Positions 29,893 through 34,554 of a stretch of 64,000 bases of DNA are shown one piece after another. Position numbers and translations under genes: made by a program. Each line of letters starts with the position of its first letter. Position 1 is the first letter of the stretch. This stretch comes from Anaerolineae bacterium (GTDB taxonomy: Bacteria > Chloroflexota > Anaerolineae > Fen-1058). Location of the stretch: assembly GCA_041300525.1 (NCBI GenBank), contig JBGLNJ010000001.1, positions 748,854 to 812,853 of the forward strand. The letters are read 5' to 3'. The notes below the pieces were generated by a model. That model made no database searches, was not told the DNA's origin, and was given only the letters and a program-made list of their open reading frames with translations.

Positions 29893-29943
29893 CCGACGGA
29901 GGACGAACGACGAATGACATGGTCGTTCATCCTCCGTCATTCA
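29893..29943. repeat. Inverted heptamer-array hairpin (GGAGGAC GAACGAC GAATGAC ... GTCGTTC ATCCTCC GTCATTC) overlapping the stop codon of the channel gene
   Basis: Read directly from the sequence. Confidence 0.6.
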
Positions 29944-30398
29944 ACATTCCGCTTGCGCAATTCCTCCAAGATCGCATCCAGCCGTTCGATCATCACCTGC
30001 TGCCCCACGTCCGAGGCTGTGGCCGCTCTATGAGGCAGATCGAGCAACTCGTCCGTCAACGAAGGGCCCACGGTCATGGCCAGGGTTGCAATCGCTCGTC
30101 CCGCCTGCGTTTGCGCAAAGATATCGGCATAGCCCACCGAGAGGCACGTGCCGATATAGTACAGCGCATCCACAAACGTCTTGATCTTGGGATTCGCATC
30201 GCGCTCGGCCAGGTAGAACGCCGCCGACGTTCCCAGCAAGAACCCCGCCAGCGATTCCATCGGGTAACGGGTCAGGCGCTCGACGATCTCGGATTCGATC
30301 TCGCCGCGCTTGTCCACGACCCCGCGCCAGGCCTCGACGACTTGCGCGCTGGAAATGCCCGTAAAGGTTTTCAGCATATCAGGAGTGGACTTTATCAC
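29937..30398 (-). CDS. Two-TM pore-loop ion channel (Ion_trans_2 / KcsA-like) with non-canonical filter SVGYAD
   Basis: TM1 LAGFLLGTSAAFYLA, pore helix and filter FVDALYYIGTCLSVGYADIF, TM2 AGRAIATLAMTVGPSL. The GTG start overlaps the pspA stop (GTGA). Confidence 0.5.
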   Translation of the reverse strand: MIKSTPDMLKTFTGISSAQVVEAWRGVVDKRGEIESEIVERLTRYPMESLAGFLLGTSAAFYLAERDANPKIKTFVDALYYIGTCLSVGYADIFAQTQAGRAIATLAMTVGPSLTDELLDLPHRAATASDVGQQVMIERLDAILEELRKRNVE

Positions 30399-30841
30399 GG
30401 CGTTCTTCTCCCAGACTTGTCGCTCTTTGCACGGCGAGCCTCTTGAGCCTTGTCCTGCAACGCGGCTACGGATGCCTTCATCTCGGCCACCACCTGCCGC
30501 TGATGATCGAGCTTTTTCTGCGATTCCTCGGCCACGCGCTCATACGCCATCTTGCGCTTGAGCGCCCGACGCGCCTGCTCTTCATCACCCGCTTTCAACG
30601 ACGCATCGGTCTTGGCGTCCCATTCCGCGCCTGAGGCCCGCGCGGCTTGCACCTGTTTCTCAAGCTGGTGCTGCTGCGCGATAGCCGCTGCGACGGCATC
30701 TCTGGCTTGCGCGATCCCTTCATCCATCTCGGCCAGATAGTGCGCCACAACGTCCTGCGGATCGGCCTCGTCCATCAGCAGGTCGCTCAGATTGACTTGG
30801 AGTAGAGCAGCAATGCGCCGGGATAGCTTTAGGTTTGACAT
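30395..30841 (-). CDS. pspA: PspA/IM30 (Vipp1) family protein, short 148-aa form
   Basis: Coiled-coil with PspA N-terminal signature (LLQVNLSDLLMDEADPQDVVAHYLAEMDEGIAQARDAVA...). Confidence 0.7.
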   Translation of the reverse strand: MSNLKLSRRIAALLQVNLSDLLMDEADPQDVVAHYLAEMDEGIAQARDAVAAAIAQQHQLEKQVQAARASGAEWDAKTDASLKAGDEEQARRALKRKMAYERVAEESQKKLDHQRQVVAEMKASVAALQDKAQEARRAKSDKSGRRTP

Positions 30842-30935
30842 TCGACTTGATGCGAACGACGGACGTTCGATTCCGTCATTCGTCGTTCGTCACGCGAAGC
30901 GTCCCTCTTTAGGGGGGTTCGCCATTCGCCATTCG
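30842..30935. repeat. Heptamer-periodic hairpin repeat (TTCGTCA / GCCATTC units) between flotillin and pspA
   Basis: ...TCCGTCATTCGTCGTTCGTCACGCGAAGCG...GTTCGCCATTCGCCATTCGTCATGAC. Confidence 0.55.
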
Positions 30936-33065
30936 TCATGACTTGGCCGCTGCGGCATAGCGCAGATAGATATCTTCAAAGTTGGCGTCGGCCAGGAAGG
31001 GCAGCAGCGCCAACGCCGCGCGCGCCTGGGCGACGGCGGGCTTGTCGGCCTCGGCGGCCTTGGCTTCCAGTTGATCGAGCACCTGGCTCACGGTCTGCTT
31101 CTTGAGCTTGTTCACGTCCAGCGTGCGATCCACCACGGCCATGAGCTGTGGCATGAGGGTCGCCACCTGCTCCAGCGTCATCCTCTGGCCGGGCTGTTCT
31201 TTCTTGCCGTTGCCCATCACTTTGTCGAGCAACTGGCTGCCCAGTTCCTTGACCTGCGGCGGCACCGCGCCCACCACGTCATTCATCCCTTCGGCAAACG
31301 ACATCAGGCGCAGGATGCTTTCGGCGGCATCGGGCGTGCCATACATCTTGATCTGCATGTTAGCAATCGCCGCGCCGATAGCTTGCGCGCGCGCCACACC
31401 GATCTGAACCTGGGCATCAAGCTGCATGCGCTGCAACTCTAACTTTTGGCTCACGTTGTCGAACGCCGCCAACGCTTCGGCCTTGGCCTTTTGGCCTTCG
31501 GCTTCGGCCAACCCCTTGGCCTTGACCGTCTCGGCTTCGGCCAGACCTTTGGCGCGGATGACCTCGGCCTCGACCTGGGTGGCCTCGGCCTTGGCGCGGA
31601 TCACGTCAGCCTCTGCCGTGCCTTGCAAGCGAGACGCCTCGGCTTTGGCGCGCAAGACTTCGGCTTCGGCCAGACCGATCGCGCTGGAGCGAGCGCGTTC
31701 GGCGTCGGCGAGCATCTTTTCGGCGTCGCTTTCGGCCTGCGCTTGAGTGCGTTTGGTTTCGGCCTGCTTTTGCGCCGCCTCGAACTCGGCCTGGGCGATT
31801 TGCTTGAGCGCAGCCGCTTGCGCTTCGGCATCGCGAACCTTTTTCAGCACCTCGATCTCGACGGCATTCTTGCGGTCAATCATCAAGCGCTGCGCGTCGC
31901 GCTCGGCCTGAATGACCTGGATAGCGGCCTCACGCCTGGCCCTGGCCGTCTCTTCGACGGTCGTGACGTCCTGCGCGGCCTGCTCGCGTTGAGCGGACAC
32001 CAACAAGCGTTCTTTTTCCGCCGCCTCACGCTTTTGCTGCTCGGTGAGCACCGCGATCTGTTTGGTCTGCTCGGTCACTTCGCTGGCCTGGTTGCGCACA
32101 ATTTCGGCCACCTGGTATTCCTGCTTCTTGCGCTCGTCCTGCACCAGGATGGTCTGCTCCATCTCGATCTCGGACAACTTGACCGCGCGCTCTTTGGCGA
32201 TGCGCCCCTGTTCCGCCGATTGCTCCTGCTCATAGATAGACTTGTCGGCGGTGGATTTTTCGACCGCCTGGCGCGTGCGCACCTCGCGGTTTTGCGTGGC
32301 GGTGGCAAAAGCCAGGTCTTGCTCCATGGTCAGCTTTTCTTTAGCCGTGTTAATGTCGCGTTGTTTGATCTCGACTTCGGTCTTGCGCTCGATGTCGTTG
32401 CGCTCGCGCTGCGCTGCCTGAATGACCTGAGCATTGGCGCGGGCCACCTGAGCGCCGAACACGTCGTCGGTGCCGAACGAGCCTTGACGGGCCGCCTTGA
32501 GCGTGAGGATGCTCACGCTTTCCAGCACCAGGCCGTTTTCCTCCAGGTCGCTCTTGACGCGGTTTTGGACTTCCATGATAAACTTTTCGCGTTCCTGGTG
32601 CAGGCTCATCAAGGTAAAGGTGGCGGCCACATCGCGCAGCGCGCCGTCGAGCTTGGCCTCGACCAGCGTCTTGATGGCATTCGCGTCCACGGACTTTAAT
32701 CCAATCGTGCGCGCGGCGTCAATGATGCCTTCCACCGTCGGGCTGACCTTGATGTAAAAAATAGCCTTGATGTCCGCATACTGCGGGTCTTTGGTGAGGA
32801 GCGCGTTCTGCTCGGTGCGCTCGATCTCGATTGCCATCGTGCCCAGGTCTACCCACGTGACCATGTGGATGAACCCGAACACCCACGACCCGCCGTTCAT
32901 CACGACCTTGGGCGGGGCGTCGGGCTTGCGCAAAAATCCGCCCGTGCGCACGAACGCCCGGTTGGCTGGCGCTTTGACGTAGGACTTGGCAATCATCGCA
33001 AAGAACACCAAGACTGCGATGCCGACAAGACAAGAGATGGTGACTGCTAGTAACATGGGATCCAT
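30936..33065 (-). CDS. Flotillin-like protein (SPFH/band-7 domain plus a long Ala/Glu-rich coiled coil), 709 aa
   Basis: N-terminal TM, SPFH domain (...GGSWVFGFIHMVTWVDLGTMAIEIE...), and extended EA-repeat flotillin-type coiled coil. Confidence 0.85.
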   Translation of the reverse strand: MDPMLLAVTISCLVGIAVLVFFAMIAKSYVKAPANRAFVRTGGFLRKPDAPPKVVMNGGSWVFGFIHMVTWVDLGTMAIEIERTEQNALLTKDPQYADIKAIFYIKVSPTVEGIIDAARTIGLKSVDANAIKTLVEAKLDGALRDVAATFTLMSLHQEREKFIMEVQNRVKSDLEENGLVLESVSILTLKAARQGSFGTDDVFGAQVARANAQVIQAAQRERNDIERKTEVEIKQRDINTAKEKLTMEQDLAFATATQNREVRTRQAVEKSTADKSIYEQEQSAEQGRIAKERAVKLSEIEMEQTILVQDERKKQEYQVAEIVRNQASEVTEQTKQIAVLTEQQKREAAEKERLLVSAQREQAAQDVTTVEETARARREAAIQVIQAERDAQRLMIDRKNAVEIEVLKKVRDAEAQAAALKQIAQAEFEAAQKQAETKRTQAQAESDAEKMLADAERARSSAIGLAEAEVLRAKAEASRLQGTAEADVIRAKAEATQVEAEVIRAKGLAEAETVKAKGLAEAEGQKAKAEALAAFDNVSQKLELQRMQLDAQVQIGVARAQAIGAAIANMQIKMYGTPDAAESILRLMSFAEGMNDVVGAVPPQVKELGSQLLDKVMGNGKKEQPGQRMTLEQVATLMPQLMAVVDRTLDVNKLKKQTVSQVLDQLEAKAAEADKPAVAQARAALALLPFLADANFEDIYLRYAAAAKS

Positions 33066-33168
33066 TGTGCGCCTCCTCTATATGATACTTGACGAGTGAA
33101 ATGTGATGCGCGCAGCGCGCCTCACAATCCGCCGGCATGACGACAAACAGCTTGTTCGCCTTGCCGTG

Positions 33169-33498
33169 TTAGCGCCTGGGATGCAGCAGATTCATGCCGG
33201 CGCTGATCAAGGTATTGGCAAGCCCCACGGCAATGTAGAGCAAGACAATCGGCAAACCATAGGCCAGAATCTCTGCGGGCACCGTCAACAGTCCACCTTC
33301 CCAGCCGATGGACAGACGATCCGGGAACAACTGTCGGAAAAAAGCCAACTCTTTGGGGTCAACGAATAGCGAATAGATCTCCAACAACACCCCCAACGCC
33401 GCCCCCAGACCGCTCAGAATCAAAACGTAGCCCATCCCGTTTTTCAGATTCACCGGCTTGTAGAGGGTATCGAATTGACCGCCTGGTTCCTGTATCAT
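33169..33498 (-). CDS. Small two/three-TM membrane protein (operon partner of the NfeD-like gene and flotillin)
   Basis: 109-aa ORF with hydrophobic helices (YVLILSGLGAALGVLLEIYSLF; ILAYGLPIVLLYIAVGLANTLI). Start may be the internal MGYVLIL at 33435. Confidence 0.4.
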   Translation of the reverse strand: MIQEPGGQFDTLYKPVNLKNGMGYVLILSGLGAALGVLLEIYSLFVDPKELAFFRQLFPDRLSIGWEGGLLTVPAEILAYGLPIVLLYIAVGLANTLISAGMNLLHPRR

Positions 33499-33527
33499 GT
33501 CAACCTCAGCCTATCGCCTTTCACGCC

Positions 33528-34355
33528 TCACATCTCCGACGGCACGACGATAAACACCTTCTTGGCCGTGTCGTACTCGACCAGAATCACTTCGGTATCG
33601 CGCGGGATGGCGGGCTTGCCCGGATCAACCACGGCGAACACGGTGATGAGCGTGCCGCCCACATCGCGCAGCTTGACCTGGCCGTACTTTTCGTCCACCT
33701 GCGGGCTGACGACATACCCGCGCCGGCTCACCAGCCGCTTGACCGAGGTGGCCGTGCTGGAAAAGGCCGGCACCGCACGACCGATGAATACCGCCACGCG
33801 CGAAGTCAACAAGAATGCAAGGAACAAGTCCAAAAGTAAAACGACAACCAGCGCCCAACCGGGATAGGGACGGAATACGCCAACCACAGAGGCATTGGCA
33901 ATCCAGCCCAAAATTCCAAACCCGCCCAGCAATACCAGCAGAATCATGGTTACGGGCGCCTGACCCACGCCCAGGAATTGCAGCGCCCCCGCCCACGCGG
34001 GCAGGCTTCCCGCGTCGTGGCTTACGTCGTGGTCCACATCGTGGTCAACATCGTGATCCATATCGTGGCCCAGGTCGGCGTCGTGCTCCACGGCGAGGTC
34101 GTGGTCTACCGCCACATCGTGATCTAGGGCGAGGTCGTGATCCACGGCAAGATCGTGATCTAGAGCGAGGTCATGCTCCAGGCTGACGTCGTGATCCAGG
34201 TCAACGTGAACATCTGCGTCGGCATCGGCATCGTGATCTTGTTCCAGGCCGAGGAACTGTAAAGCCGAAAGACCGAGGAAGGCCAGGAGCGCCAACGTGA
34301 ACGGGATATTGTACCAGGCGGTGGCGAATGTCCACAGGTCAACGAGAGCTTTCAC
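33528..34355 (-). CDS. NfeD-like (YuaF-type) membrane protein with C-terminal OB-fold and an inserted His-Asp hexapeptide repeat tract
   Basis: GTG start after RBS AAGGAAAAAG (VKALVDLWTF...). HD-repeat DHDADADADVHVDLDHDVSLEHDLALDHDLAVDHDLALDHDVAVDHDLAVEHDADLGHDMDHDVDHDVDHDVSHD. C-terminal NfeD OB-fold (GYVVSPQVDEKYGQVKLRDVGGTLITVFAVV...VEYDTAKKVFIVVP). Confidence 0.65.
   Translation of the reverse strand: MKALVDLWTFATAWYNIPFTLALLAFLGLSALQFLGLEQDHDADADADVHVDLDHDVSLEHDLALDHDLAVDHDLALDHDVAVDHDLAVEHDADLGHDMDHDVDHDVDHDVSHDAGSLPAWAGALQFLGVGQAPVTMILLVLLGGFGILGWIANASVVGVFRPYPGWALVVVLLLDLFLAFLLTSRVAVFIGRAVPAFSSTATSVKRLVSRRGYVVSPQVDEKYGQVKLRDVGGTLITVFAVVDPGKPAIPRDTEVILVEYDTAKKVFIVVPSEM
33990..34240 (-). 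repeat. In-frame ~18-nt tandem repeat encoding (D-H-D-[LV]-A-[LV])n
   Basis: DNA periodicity GGCGAGGTCGTGATCCAC / GGCAAGATCGTGATCTAG / AGCGAGGTCATGCTCCAG on the plus strand. Confidence 0.6.
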
Positions 34356-34554
34356 GTTACTTTTTCCTTGCCGTCGGCAAAGCCAGAGGCGCGCGAGAGG
34401 CTCTGCGACGATGCGCGGGTTGCTGCCCATTCAGGAATCTGGTTCGGCCTTGATTCTATCACACGTCTACCCGGGAATCAACTCCGGGAGGCGAACCGAA
34501 GCGGACAGTTGGCTGACACAAACGGAAAGGCCCTGTTGGATTCACGATTTTTCC

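What the first reader, a model, noticed from the sequence alone, without database searches (positions are those of the whole stretch)
33990..34240. In-frame (DHD-L/V-A-L/V)n His-Asp hexapeptide tandem repeat inside the NfeD-like protein
About 13 tandem 18-nt units encode alternating His-Asp dyads: DHDVSLEHDLALDHDLAVDHDLALDHDVAVDHDLAVEHDADLGHDMDHDVDHDVDHDVSHD. The tract lies between the N-terminal TM region and the C-terminal TM plus OB-fold. Such HD-rich tracts are classic divalent-metal (Zn/Ni/Co) binding sequences. As a DNA tandem repeat it is also a candidate for length variation (contingency locus).
Basis: seen in the sequence. Interest (0 to 1): 0.6.

Follow-up and report, generated by a model that had tools for sequence, protein, structure and literature searches.

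The report
His-Asp repeat loop of YqiJ protein
The His-Asp repeat is real, in frame and strongly conserved. It is an unusually long, histidine-rich version of an acidic loop found throughout the YqiJ (NfeD-type) membrane partners of bacterial flotillins. It most likely binds cations on the cytoplasmic face of the membrane and is not a phase-variable repeat.

Summary
The tract exists on the minus strand (nt 34008-34244, aa 38-116 of a 275-aa protein, 34355..33528). The quoted peptide is exact. The repeat is 7 x 18 nt plus 5 x 12 nt plus a (Asp-Ala)3 lead-in, not 13 x 18 nt.

The protein belongs to the YqiJ family (Pfam YqiJ_N). It has three TM helices and an NfeD-type OB fold, and sits in a yqiJ / small ORF / yqiK-flotillin / pspA / K-channel-like cluster from an Anaerolineae-like genome.

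Nearly all family members carry an acidic (Asp-x)n loop at this position. Histidine enrichment is lineage-specific: 14 of 129 representatives have six or more H-D/E dyads, and this protein has 13.

The tract obeys a strict two-phase code, D/E/G/S/A alternating with H/V/L/A/M. Its dN/dS is 0.04 against 0.16 for the rest of the gene. AlphaFold models it as coil with low confidence. Topology arguments place it in the cytoplasm.

The DNA units are only about 71% identical, and the longest exact repeat is 12 nt. Tract length is the same in nearly every full-length member of seven >=90%-identity clusters. Species-level relatives differ by whole 4- or 6-residue units. It is therefore not a contingency locus.

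Metal or proton binding is plausible but untested. The locus is an ordinary member of a known system that carries an undescribed, strongly selected loop.

The parts
33528..34355 (-). yqiJ-like gene (275 aa, GTG start, stop included): NfeD2/YqiJ-family membrane protein
   Evidence: ORF and translation. Pfam YqiJ_N scores 32.3 bits against a cut-off of 23. There are 183 homologues, and the closest ones start at the same residue.
34245..34313 (-). TM1 (aa 15-37), with the conserved W-Y-N-x-P-F start
   Evidence: Hydropathy peak of 2.02. AF2 helix 14-35 with pLDDT about 97. W14, N16 and F19 are nearly invariant in alignment A1.
34008..34244 (-). Whole acidic/His tract (aa 38-116; 27 D, 3 E, 14 H, no K/R)
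   Evidence: Composition and register. AF2 pLDDT is 45-50 and the tract is modelled as coil. dN/dS is 0.044 against L003.
34197..34244 (-). Lead-in EQDHD(AD)3-VHVDL (aa 38-53)
   Evidence: Conserved among close homologues, including the single out-of-phase His in VHV.
34071..34196 (-). Seven 18-nt units encoding [DE]HD[LVA][ASD][LV] (aa 54-95)
   Evidence: TRF period 18, 36 and 54 at 34058-34198. Unit list, with 63% aa and 71% nt identity between units.
34011..34070 (-). Five 12-nt units encoding xHDx (aa 96-115)
   Evidence: TRF period 12 at 34027-34072. Unit list.
33774..33959 (-). TM2-TM3 helical hairpin (aa 133-194), preceded by the short helix 120-127 and the FLGVGQAP motif
   Evidence: Hydropathy. 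AF2 helices 133-160 and 166-194 with pLDDT above 90. In 95 of 106 family representatives the residue before TM2 is K or R.
33540..33743 (-). C-terminal NfeD-type OB-fold domain (aa 205-272)
   Evidence: AF2 models five strands with pLDDT about 98. Foldseek hits 3cp0 (TM 0.83) and 3wwv (TM 0.79). The A1 profile hits YuaF 2k14 at E 0.06.
34453..34481 (-). Promoter-like site TTGATT-17-TAGAAT (TG-extended), about 100 nt upstream of the start
   Evidence: Consensus scan only; this is weak evidence.
33169..33498 (-). 109-aa small membrane ORF between yqiJ and yqiK
   Evidence: ORF. No Pfam or NCBIfam family. A 109-aa gene is called at the same place in relative L003.
30936..33065 (-). YqiK-like flotillin (SPFH/Band_7, 709 aa), the presumed partner
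   Evidence: Pfam Band_7 at E 6e-17. 34% identity over 453 aa to E. coli YqiK, E 5e-60.
30395..30841 (-). PspA/IM30-family gene (148 aa)
   Evidence: Pfam PspA_IM30 at E 1.6e-17. A PspA_IM30 gene follows the Band_7 gene in two relatives, P0117 and P0061.
29937..30398 (-). Small Ion_trans_2 (K-channel pore-like) gene, overlapping the pspA stop by 4 nt
   Evidence: Pfam Ion_trans_2 at E 7.4e-9. Filter-like SVGYA sequence. Same position in relatives.

Best explanation
The tract is a lineage-expanded, histidine-enriched version of the acidic (Asp-x)n loop that links TM1 to the TM2-TM3 hairpin in YqiJ-family (NfeD2) proteins, the operon partners of YqiK-type flotillins.

Shown:
- It is translated in frame.
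- It follows a strict two-phase code. One phase holds D/E/G/S/A and the other holds H/V/L/A/M.
- It is under stronger purifying selection than the rest of the protein.
- It changes only by slow gain or loss of whole 4- or 6-residue units.

Inferred:
- The loop lies on the cytoplasmic face of the membrane, beneath or beside the flotillin assembly.
- It is disordered on its own and carries about -30 charge with 13 D-H-D triads.
- It acts as a multivalent, modest-affinity binder of divalent cations. Carboxylates alone would suffice for Mg/Ca, and imidazole plus carboxylate would serve Zn, Ni, Co or Fe(II). The His residues would also take up protons.
- Binding would neutralise and compact the loop, coupling the local ion or pH state to the YqiJ-YqiK(-PspA-channel) membrane module.

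It is not a phase-variation device.
For: Family membership and architecture:
- Pfam YqiJ_N.
- AF2 models three TM helices and an OB fold at pLDDT above 90.
- The OB fold matches 3cp0 and 3wwv.
- The neighbouring gene is 34% identical to E. coli YqiK.

Family-wide loop:
- A search with the tract-less C-terminus found 605 representatives.
- Of 129 full-length ones, almost all have an acidic loop at this position. Fifty have three or more H-D/E dyads, 14 have six or more and 4 have ten or more.
- Fifty-eight of 102 loops show a period-2 acid signal at p<=0.01.

Selection on the tract:
- In 25 close tracts the acid phase holds D658/E74/G94/S66/A61/H25 and no L, V, I or M.
- The other phase holds H322/V229/L177/A142 and no D or E.
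- dN/dS is 0.044 in the tract against 0.16 elsewhere, versus L003.
- The same DHDVAV hexapeptide recurs in a Heimdallarchaeota homologue that is only about 31% identical elsewhere.

Cytoplasmic side:
- Two TM helices separate the tract from the OB domain.
- That domain is cytosolic in the S. aureus NfeD-FloA complex (PMC11222466).
- K or R precedes TM2 in 95 of 106 relatives, and a median of 4 K/R follow TM3.

Disorder: pLDDT is 45-50 across aa 41-116.

Link to metals:
- Deleting the S. oneidensis YqiK homologue SO1377 cut free iron three-fold and caused H2O2 sensitivity.
- The authors proposed that the DUF1449/YqiJ partner SO1376 is a metallochaperone (PMC1468410).
- From general knowledge, His/Asp-rich cytoplasmic loops of CDF, ZIP and RcnA transporters and the SlyD tail bind Zn, Ni and Co.
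Against: - No binding was measured or could be computed here.
- His is dispensable in the family. Thirty-nine of 129 representatives have none, and E. coli YqiJ has only a 25-aa loop with 4 His. Transition-metal binding therefore cannot be the family's core function.
- No metal-homeostasis gene or recognisable metal-regulator site lies in the cluster.
- The perfect binary register suggests a structural constraint that a purely disordered chelator would not need.
- The topology is inferred, not measured. A loop with no K/R and 30 acidic residues would by itself also suit a translocated loop.
- The Shewanella phenotype concerns the flotillin gene, and its partner lacks an HD tract.
Confidence: 0.5

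Rival explanations
1. Generic polyanionic spacer. The loop works only through its length and negative charge, for example by electrostatic repulsion from anionic lipids or nucleic acids, or by setting the spacing or hydration under the flotillin dome. His is a tolerated neutral filler with no specific ion binding.
For: - The conserved feature across the family is alternating Asp with variable x (A, V, L, I, G or H).
- Loop length varies widely, and many members lack His altogether.
- AF2 models the tract as coil with low confidence.
Against: - In this clade every His is conserved. Substitutions stay within their phase classes, and dN/dS is 0.04, lower than in the folded parts of the protein.
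- The same DHD-phi-x-phi unit recurs in distant lineages.
- A pure charge spacer would tolerate Asp/Glu runs and phase shifts, and none is seen.
Confidence: 0.22
2. Conditionally folded amphipathic beta structure. The period-2 code gives one all-carboxylate face and one His/aliphatic face. It would form beta strands lying on the inner leaflet, or a sheet or solenoid shared between the many YqiJ copies of a flotillin assembly, perhaps only once cations neutralise the Asp face.
For: - The hydrophobic moment is 0.52 at 180 degrees against 0.085 or less at helical angles.
- The two phases never mix in 25 homologues.
- Indels come in even numbers of residues (2, 4 or 6), which preserves the register.
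- SPFH-NfeD complexes are large oligomers. The QmcA-YbbJ cage has 26 heterodimers, as summarised in PMC13086221.
Against: - AF2 with 124 sequences gives coil at pLDDT below 50.
- No Pfam repeat or hexapeptide family matches the tract.
- In many relatives the non-acid phase is mostly Ala, which makes a weak hydrophobic face.
- Thirty uncompensated carboxylates on one face disfavour sheet formation.
Confidence: 0.13
3. pH sensor or proton buffer. The 13 D-H-D triads, whose His pKa is raised by flanking Asp, titrate near cytoplasmic pH. The loop's net charge would move from about -30 towards -16, switching its conformation or its interactions during acid or membrane stress.
For: - Every repeat His, 13 of the 14 in the tract, is flanked by acidic residues on both sides. 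The one exception is the His in VHV.
- The cluster includes PspA and an ion-channel-like gene, which are membrane and ion-stress functions.
- The link between flanking Asp and His pKa is chemical reasoning only.
Against: - There is no direct evidence.
- His-free relatives keep the loop.
- This reading overlaps with the cation-binding explanation rather than excluding it.
Confidence: 0.1
4. Contingency locus. The tandem DNA repeat slips frequently, giving rapid heritable variation in length within populations.
For: - It is a tandem repeat with an in-frame unit length.
- Species-level relatives differ by whole units. P0003 has one extra hexapeptide, and P0001, P0004 and P0005 differ by single tetrapeptides.
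- The Heimdallarchaeota homologue has near-perfect 18-nt units, 90% matching.
Against: - Units in this window are about 71% identical at the DNA level, with differences concentrated at third codon positions. The longest exact repeat is 12 nt.
- Seven >=90%-identity clusters from independent samples show no tract-length variation among full-length members: 5/5, 2/2, 2/2, 3/3, 6/6 and 2/2. One divergent member, P0287, differs by 2 residues.
- In-frame units cannot switch expression on and off.
- The product is cytoplasmic, not surface-exposed.
Confidence: 0.03

Closest known systems
E. coli YqiJ (b3050; Pfam YqiJ_N + YqiJ_OB, formerly DUF1449), partner of the flotillin YqiK
   Same: - Same three-TM plus C-terminal OB architecture, and the same gene order upstream of a YqiK-type flotillin.
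- The loop at the same position contains His and Asp: [22 protein letters not shown].
   Different: - The E. coli loop is about 25 aa, non-repetitive, and has 4 His.
- The window protein has a 79-aa repeat with 14 His and 30 acidic residues.
- Identity is only 22% over the TM2-OB region.
- The window protein does not reach the Pfam YqiJ_OB model.
S. oneidensis SO1376 (DUF1449) / SO1377 (YqiK-like) pair
   Same: - The same two-gene module.
- It is the only published functional link between this module and metals: lower free iron, H2O2 sensitivity, and a metallochaperone proposal for the YqiJ homologue (PMC1468410).
   Different: - The phenotype came from the flotillin knock-out.
- The proposal for SO1376 rested on 4 Cys and 2 His, not on an HD tract. 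It is speculative.
Short NfeD proteins of flotillin operons (B. subtilis YuaF/NfeD2; S. aureus NfeD; C. glutamicum 3cp0; P. horikoshii 1510-C)
   Same: - A membrane anchor plus a cytosolic five-stranded OB domain that binds the SPFH partner (PMC2636767, PMC11222466).
- The fold match is TM 0.79-0.83.
   Different: These proteins are not reported to carry an acidic/His loop, and no paper in the library pairs NfeD with 'histidine-rich'.
His/Asp-rich cytoplasmic loops and tails of metal-handling proteins (CDF/ZnT and ZIP loops, RcnA loop, SlyD and HypB tails); from general knowledge, not tested here
   Same: - Disordered, cytoplasmic, membrane-proximal runs rich in H, D and E.
- They act as low-affinity multivalent binders or sensors of Zn, Ni and Co.
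   Different: - Those tracts sit in proteins with a demonstrated metal function.
- They lack the strict Asp/(His, aliphatic) alternation and the hexapeptide unit.
- No homology is implied.
(Asp-Y)n repeats of acidic biomineral matrix proteins and Ser-Asp repeats of staphylococcal Sdr/Clf adhesins
   Same: Dipeptide-period acidic repeats that present carboxylates at every second residue. NCBIfam gave only weak compositional hits to the SD-repeat regions, E about 0.005 and far below the cut-offs.
   Different: - Those are extracellular proteins, with Ser or Gly as the second residue and no His.
- There is no evolutionary relationship.

Membership tests
YqiJ family (NfeD2 subfamily of SPFH-partner proteins) | Match to Pfam YqiJ_N (PF21001) above the gathering score | tested here: met
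   32.3 bits against a cut-off of 23, E 1.2e-7, aa 99-171 matching profile positions 35-105. The long tract interrupts the N-terminal part of the match.
YqiJ family (NfeD2 subfamily of SPFH-partner proteins) | Match to Pfam YqiJ_OB (PF07290) in the C-terminal domain | tested here: not met
   No hit even at E<=1 for the C-terminal 140 aa, whereas E. coli YqiJ scores 54 bits. Sequence divergence is the likely cause, because the fold itself is present (next row).
YqiJ family (NfeD2 subfamily of SPFH-partner proteins) | Three TM helices followed by an NfeD-type five-stranded OB fold | tested here: met
   AF2 pLDDT is above 90 for TM1-3 and the OB domain. Foldseek hits 3cp0 at TM 0.83, E 4e-4, and 3wwv at TM 0.79. 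YuaF 2k14 is the best PDB profile hit, at E 0.06.
YqiJ family (NfeD2 subfamily of SPFH-partner proteins) | Encoded immediately upstream of an SPFH2/flotillin (YqiK/YuaG-type) gene | tested here: met
   A Band_7 protein 34% identical to E. coli YqiK lies downstream on the same strand, separated only by a 109-aa ORF. The arrangement is the same in relatives and is the defining operon in PMC2636767.
YqiJ family (NfeD2 subfamily of SPFH-partner proteins) | Physical interaction with the flotillin partner | not testable with these tools
   Shown only for S. aureus NfeD-FloA (PMC11222466) and for E. coli YbbJ-QmcA (cited in PMC13086221).
Contingency (phase-variable) simple-sequence repeat locus | Near-identical tandem DNA units long enough for slipped-strand mispairing | tested here: not met
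   Unit identity is 61-76%, with a mean of 71%. The longest exact repeated word is 12 nt.
Contingency (phase-variable) simple-sequence repeat locus | Length polymorphism among near-identical strains or populations | tested here: not met
   Tract length is identical among full-length members of seven >=90% clusters from independent samples. The one exception is P0287, which differs by 2 residues. Read-level data were not available.
Contingency (phase-variable) simple-sequence repeat locus | Repeat change alters the reading frame or expression | tested here: not met
   Units are 12 and 18 nt long, and every observed indel is in frame.
His-rich metal-binding loops (CDF/ZIP/RcnA/SlyD type) | Clustered His with Asp/Glu in a disordered cytoplasmic segment | tested here: met
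   14 His and 30 D/E in 79 aa. pLDDT is below 50. The cytoplasmic side is inferred from the topology arguments (PMC11222466).
His-rich metal-binding loops (CDF/ZIP/RcnA/SlyD type) | Demonstrated binding of Zn, Ni or Co, or a host protein with a metal-handling function | not testable with these tools
   No binding data exist. The cluster contains no metal-homeostasis genes. The only indirect link is the Shewanella iron phenotype (PMC1468410).
Left-handed beta-helix hexapeptide repeat (Pfam Hexapep) | Match to the [LIV]-[GAED]-x2-[STAV]-x hexapeptide profile and a predicted beta-helix | tested here: not met
   No Pfam hit other than YqiJ_N at E<=0.1. AF2 gives coil for the tract.

The most novel reading that the evidence does not exclude
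The strict Asp/(His, aliphatic) binary code may not be a floppy chelator. It could be a cation- or proton-triggered amphipathic beta element. Copies contributed by the many YqiJ subunits of one flotillin assembly would together form a carboxylate- and imidazole-lined layer on the inner leaflet. That layer would act as a local cation reservoir or sensor (Fe, Zn, or coupled to the K-channel-like gene) for a conserved YqiJ / flotillin / PspA / channel membrane-stress module.
Probability: 0.1. Interest if true: 0.7.

Novelty: new member of a known kind. Interest (0 to 1): 0.33.

Why it matters
The roles of NfeD and YqiJ proteins beside bacterial flotillins are still unclear. This analysis shows that the YqiJ family carries a conserved cytoplasmic (Asp-x)n loop with strict alternation. 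I found no description of it in the searchable literature.

In some lineages, including this Anaerolineae-like one, the loop is expanded into a histidine-rich repeat under very strong purifying selection. That gives a concrete, cheap hypothesis to test: the loop binds cations or protons at the flotillin microdomain. The published Shewanella iron and oxidative-stress phenotype of the same gene pair makes the test worthwhile.

The gene itself is an ordinary member of a known, already annotated family. The proposed phase variation does not hold.

Tried and rejected
- Searching the 5.8-billion-protein set with the tract alone returned nothing, probably because of its biased composition. I therefore could not ask which other families carry the same units.
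- NCBIfam hits to the Sdr/Clf adhesins are compositional matches to SD repeats, far below the cut-offs. I rejected them.
- PADLOC gave no defence-system match for the three genes.
- The longer ATG-initiated ORF (300 aa, from 34430) was rejected in favour of GTG 34355, where homologues begin.
- The plus-strand ORFs across the tract (for example 33815..34186) are Arg/Pro/Gly-rich shadows of the repeat.
- I considered a left-handed beta-helix reading of the hexapeptide and rejected it.
- The 74% 'match' to a Heimdallarchaeota contig (L008) is only repeat-to-repeat similarity in a native low-GC archaeal homologue. It is not contamination or recent transfer.
- The parity of whole-loop length across the broad family is not conserved, 60 odd against 49 even. 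The register constraint therefore applies within the tract, not between the flanking anchors.
- The QmcA-YbbJ cryo-EM paper is not held in the library.
Full report
**Observation**

The region lies inside a minus-strand ORF. Homologues begin at MKALVDLW/MQALAELW, which fixes the start at GTG 34355, with AAGGA upstream. The protein is 275 aa and the gene ends at 33528.

The complete acidic/His tract is aa 38-116 (nt 34008-34244). It holds 27 Asp, 3 Glu, 14 His and no Lys or Arg.

The repeat structure differs from the description. There are seven 18-nt units encoding [DE]HD[LVA][ASD][LV] (aa 54-95). Five 12-nt units encode xHDx (aa 96-115). A (Asp-Ala)3-VHVDL lead-in precedes them. Thirteen is the number of H-D dyads, not of 18-nt units.

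The tract is far from chance. TRF scores are 103-135. The period-2 acid signal is 0.375, against a maximum of 0.207 in 5000 shuffles of the tract's own residues. A six-frame scan of the window found only one other 40-aa segment reaching the His/acid thresholds, a non-repetitive stretch in the + strand reading frame near nt 701.

**The host protein and its neighbourhood**

- Pfam assigns the protein to YqiJ_N, 32.3 bits against a cut-off of 23.
- AlphaFold2 with a 124-sequence alignment models five elements at pLDDT above 90. These are TM1 (aa 14-35), a short helix (120-127), a TM2-TM3 hairpin (133-160 and 166-194) and a five-stranded C-terminal barrel.
- The best structural matches of the barrel are the NfeD soluble domains 3cp0 (TM 0.83) and 3wwv (TM 0.79). 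YuaF (2k14) is the best PDB sequence-profile hit.
- Pfam YqiJ_OB is not matched, although E. coli YqiJ matches it.
- Downstream on the same strand lie four genes:
  - a 109-aa membrane ORF;
  - a 709-aa Band_7 protein, 34% identical to E. coli YqiK (E 5e-60);
  - a PspA/IM30 gene;
  - a small Ion_trans_2 gene with an SVGYA filter-like motif.
- Parts of this downstream order recur in relatives. The Band_7 gene follows YqiJ in four loci, PspA_IM30 in two (P0117, P0061) and Ion_trans_2 in three (P0117, P0036, P0061).
- The closest genomic relatives are uncultured Anaerolineae and Thermoflexales MAGs.
- YqiJ as the NfeD2 partner of SPFH2 flotillins is described in PMC2636767. The PspA / flotillin / YqiJ neighbourhood is described in PMC11237479.

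**The tract is a family feature**

All close homologues carry it. To avoid bias from the tract itself, I searched 1.84 billion cluster representatives with only the tract-less C-terminal 160 aa, which returned 605 hits.

In the 129 full-length proteins among the best 150, the loop between TM1 and the conserved LG(V/I)G(K/R)(V/A)P motif is almost always acidic. It alternates Asp/Glu with A, V, L, I, G or H.

H-D/E dyads have a median of 2 per loop. Fifty representatives have three or more, 14 have six or more, 4 have ten or more, the maximum is 19, and 39 have none. Fifty-eight of 102 analysable loops have a period-2 acid signal at p<=0.01.

E. coli YqiJ has only a 25-aa, 4-His, non-repetitive loop. 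The family's conserved property is therefore alternating Asp. Histidine enrichment is lineage-specific, and this protein sits at the high end without being unique.

**Selection and register**

In 25 close tracts the two phases never mix. The acid phase holds D658, E74, G94, S66, A61 and H25, and no L, V, I or M. The H25 is one conserved VHV per tract. The other phase holds H322, V229, L177, A142, M24 and I20, and no D or E.

The hydrophobic moment is 0.52 at 180 degrees, against 0.085 or less at helical angles.

Against the closest relative (L003), dS is 0.48 in the tract and dN is 0.021. That gives dN/dS of 0.044, compared with 0.16 for the rest of the gene. More distant pairs have saturated synonymous sites and pN of 0.07-0.12.

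A Heimdallarchaeota homologue is only about 31% identical elsewhere, yet it carries seven or eight near-perfect DHDVAV units. The amino-acid sequence of the tract is therefore functionally constrained.

**Is it a contingency locus? No**

- DNA units are 61-76% identical, with differences concentrated at third codon positions (64 of 111).
- GAT and GAC are used 14:13, and the longest exact repeated word is 12 nt.
- In seven >=90%-identity clusters drawn from independent metagenomes, tract length is identical among full-length members. Point substitutions do occur. One divergent member, P0287, differs by 2 residues.
- Between species-level relatives the tract differs by whole units. P0003 has one extra hexapeptide, and P0001, P0004 and P0005 differ stepwise by tetrapeptides.
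- All changes are in frame.

This is slow unit turnover under selection, not hypermutable switching.

**Location**

Two TM helices separate the tract from the OB domain. That domain is cytosolic and binds the flotillin coiled coil in S. aureus (PMC11222466). [quoted passage not shown] 2024, as summarised in PMC13086221).

In 95 of 106 relatives the residue just before TM2 is K or R, and a median of 4 K/R follow TM3. This fits a TM2-TM3 hairpin with both ends inside the cell.

I therefore place the tract on the cytoplasmic face. This is an inference. From memory, the global E. coli topology data also put the YqiJ C-terminus in the cytoplasm, but I could not check that here.

**Mechanism**

AF2 gives coil at pLDDT 45-50 for aa 41-116.

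My best reading, at confidence about 0.5, is a disordered, polyanionic, multivalent element that binds cations and protons. Its carboxylates are common to the whole family. The D-H-D triads in this lineage add affinity for Zn, Ni, Co or Fe(II) and titration near neutral pH. Binding would neutralise and compact the loop beneath the flotillin assembly.

Support is circumstantial:
- the chemistry of the residues;
- the strong selection on every His and Asp;
- analogy with the His/Asp loops of CDF, ZIP, RcnA and SlyD (general knowledge);
- the Shewanella SO1376/SO1377 study, in which loss of the flotillin lowered free iron three-fold and sensitised cells to H2O2 (PMC1468410).

Against it:
- His is dispensable in the family.
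- No metal genes are nearby.
- The perfect binary register hints at a structural constraint.

The rivals are a pure charge spacer (0.22), a conditionally folded amphipathic beta element (0.13), a pH sensor (0.10, which overlaps with the best reading) and a contingency locus (0.03).

**Novelty and verdict**

The gene is a new member of a known, annotated family. One homologue, P0036, is already named 'YqiJ family protein', and others carry the generic JGI label 'membrane protein implicated in regulation of membrane protease activity'.

I found no paper describing the acidic/His loop. It offers a simple experimental handle on NfeD/YqiJ function.

Interest is modest, at 0.33. The structural placement is right, the metal idea is plausible but untested, and the phase-variation idea is not supported.

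Noticed in passing
window 29937-34355 (minus strand): The locus is a five-gene cluster: yqiJ-like, a 109-aa membrane ORF, a YqiK-like flotillin, PspA/IM30, and a small Ion_trans_2 K-channel-like gene with an SVGYA motif and a 4-nt overlap with pspA. Parts of this order recur in three relatives: YqiJ-Band_7-PspA-Ion_trans_2 in P0117 and L011, and YqiJ-Band_7-Ion_trans_2 without PspA in L010. The text of the PSP neighbourhood paper (PMC11237479) does not mention the channel partner.
   Followed up: partly
window 33169-33498 (minus strand): A 109-aa hydrophobic ORF sits between yqiJ and yqiK and has no Pfam or NCBIfam family. A 109-aa gene is called at the same position in relative L003, and a 195-aa ORF occupies that position in L005.
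   Followed up: partly
L007 4974-5735 and L008 4983-5252 (Heimdallarchaeota MAGs): Low-GC archaeal YqiJ-like genes, next to an SPFH gene in L007, carry 7-8 near-perfect DHDVAV units (18 nt, 90% matching). The L008 contig ends inside the repeat, which suggests an assembly break. The two MAGs differ in unit sequence, so these would be better candidates for recent repeat turnover than the window's tract.
   Followed up: partly
window 34356-34554, compared with L002 5059-5799 and L003 2583-3311: Relatives have a DUF2085 gene between lgt and yqiJ. The window has only a 200-nt spacer there, with a promoter-like TTGATT-17-TAGAAT at 34481-34453. The upstream AhpC/TSA-lgt synteny is otherwise conserved.
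   Followed up: no
window 30936-33065 (minus strand), aa ~400-540 of the flotillin: The YqiK-like protein is about 150 aa longer than E. coli YqiK. It contains internally repetitive Ala/Glu/Lys-rich coiled-coil segments (AEAEVLRAKAEA..., VIRAKGLAEAE...). These produce a long shadow ORF on the opposite strand (31446..32699).
   Followed up: no
window 33531-33950 (minus strand), C-terminal 140 aa of the YqiJ-like protein: The OB domain is confidently predicted and matches NfeD structures, but it gives no hit to Pfam YqiJ_OB (PF07290) even at E<=1. The L007 archaeal homologue hits no Pfam family at all. The current Pfam models under-cover this branch of the family.
   Followed up: yes
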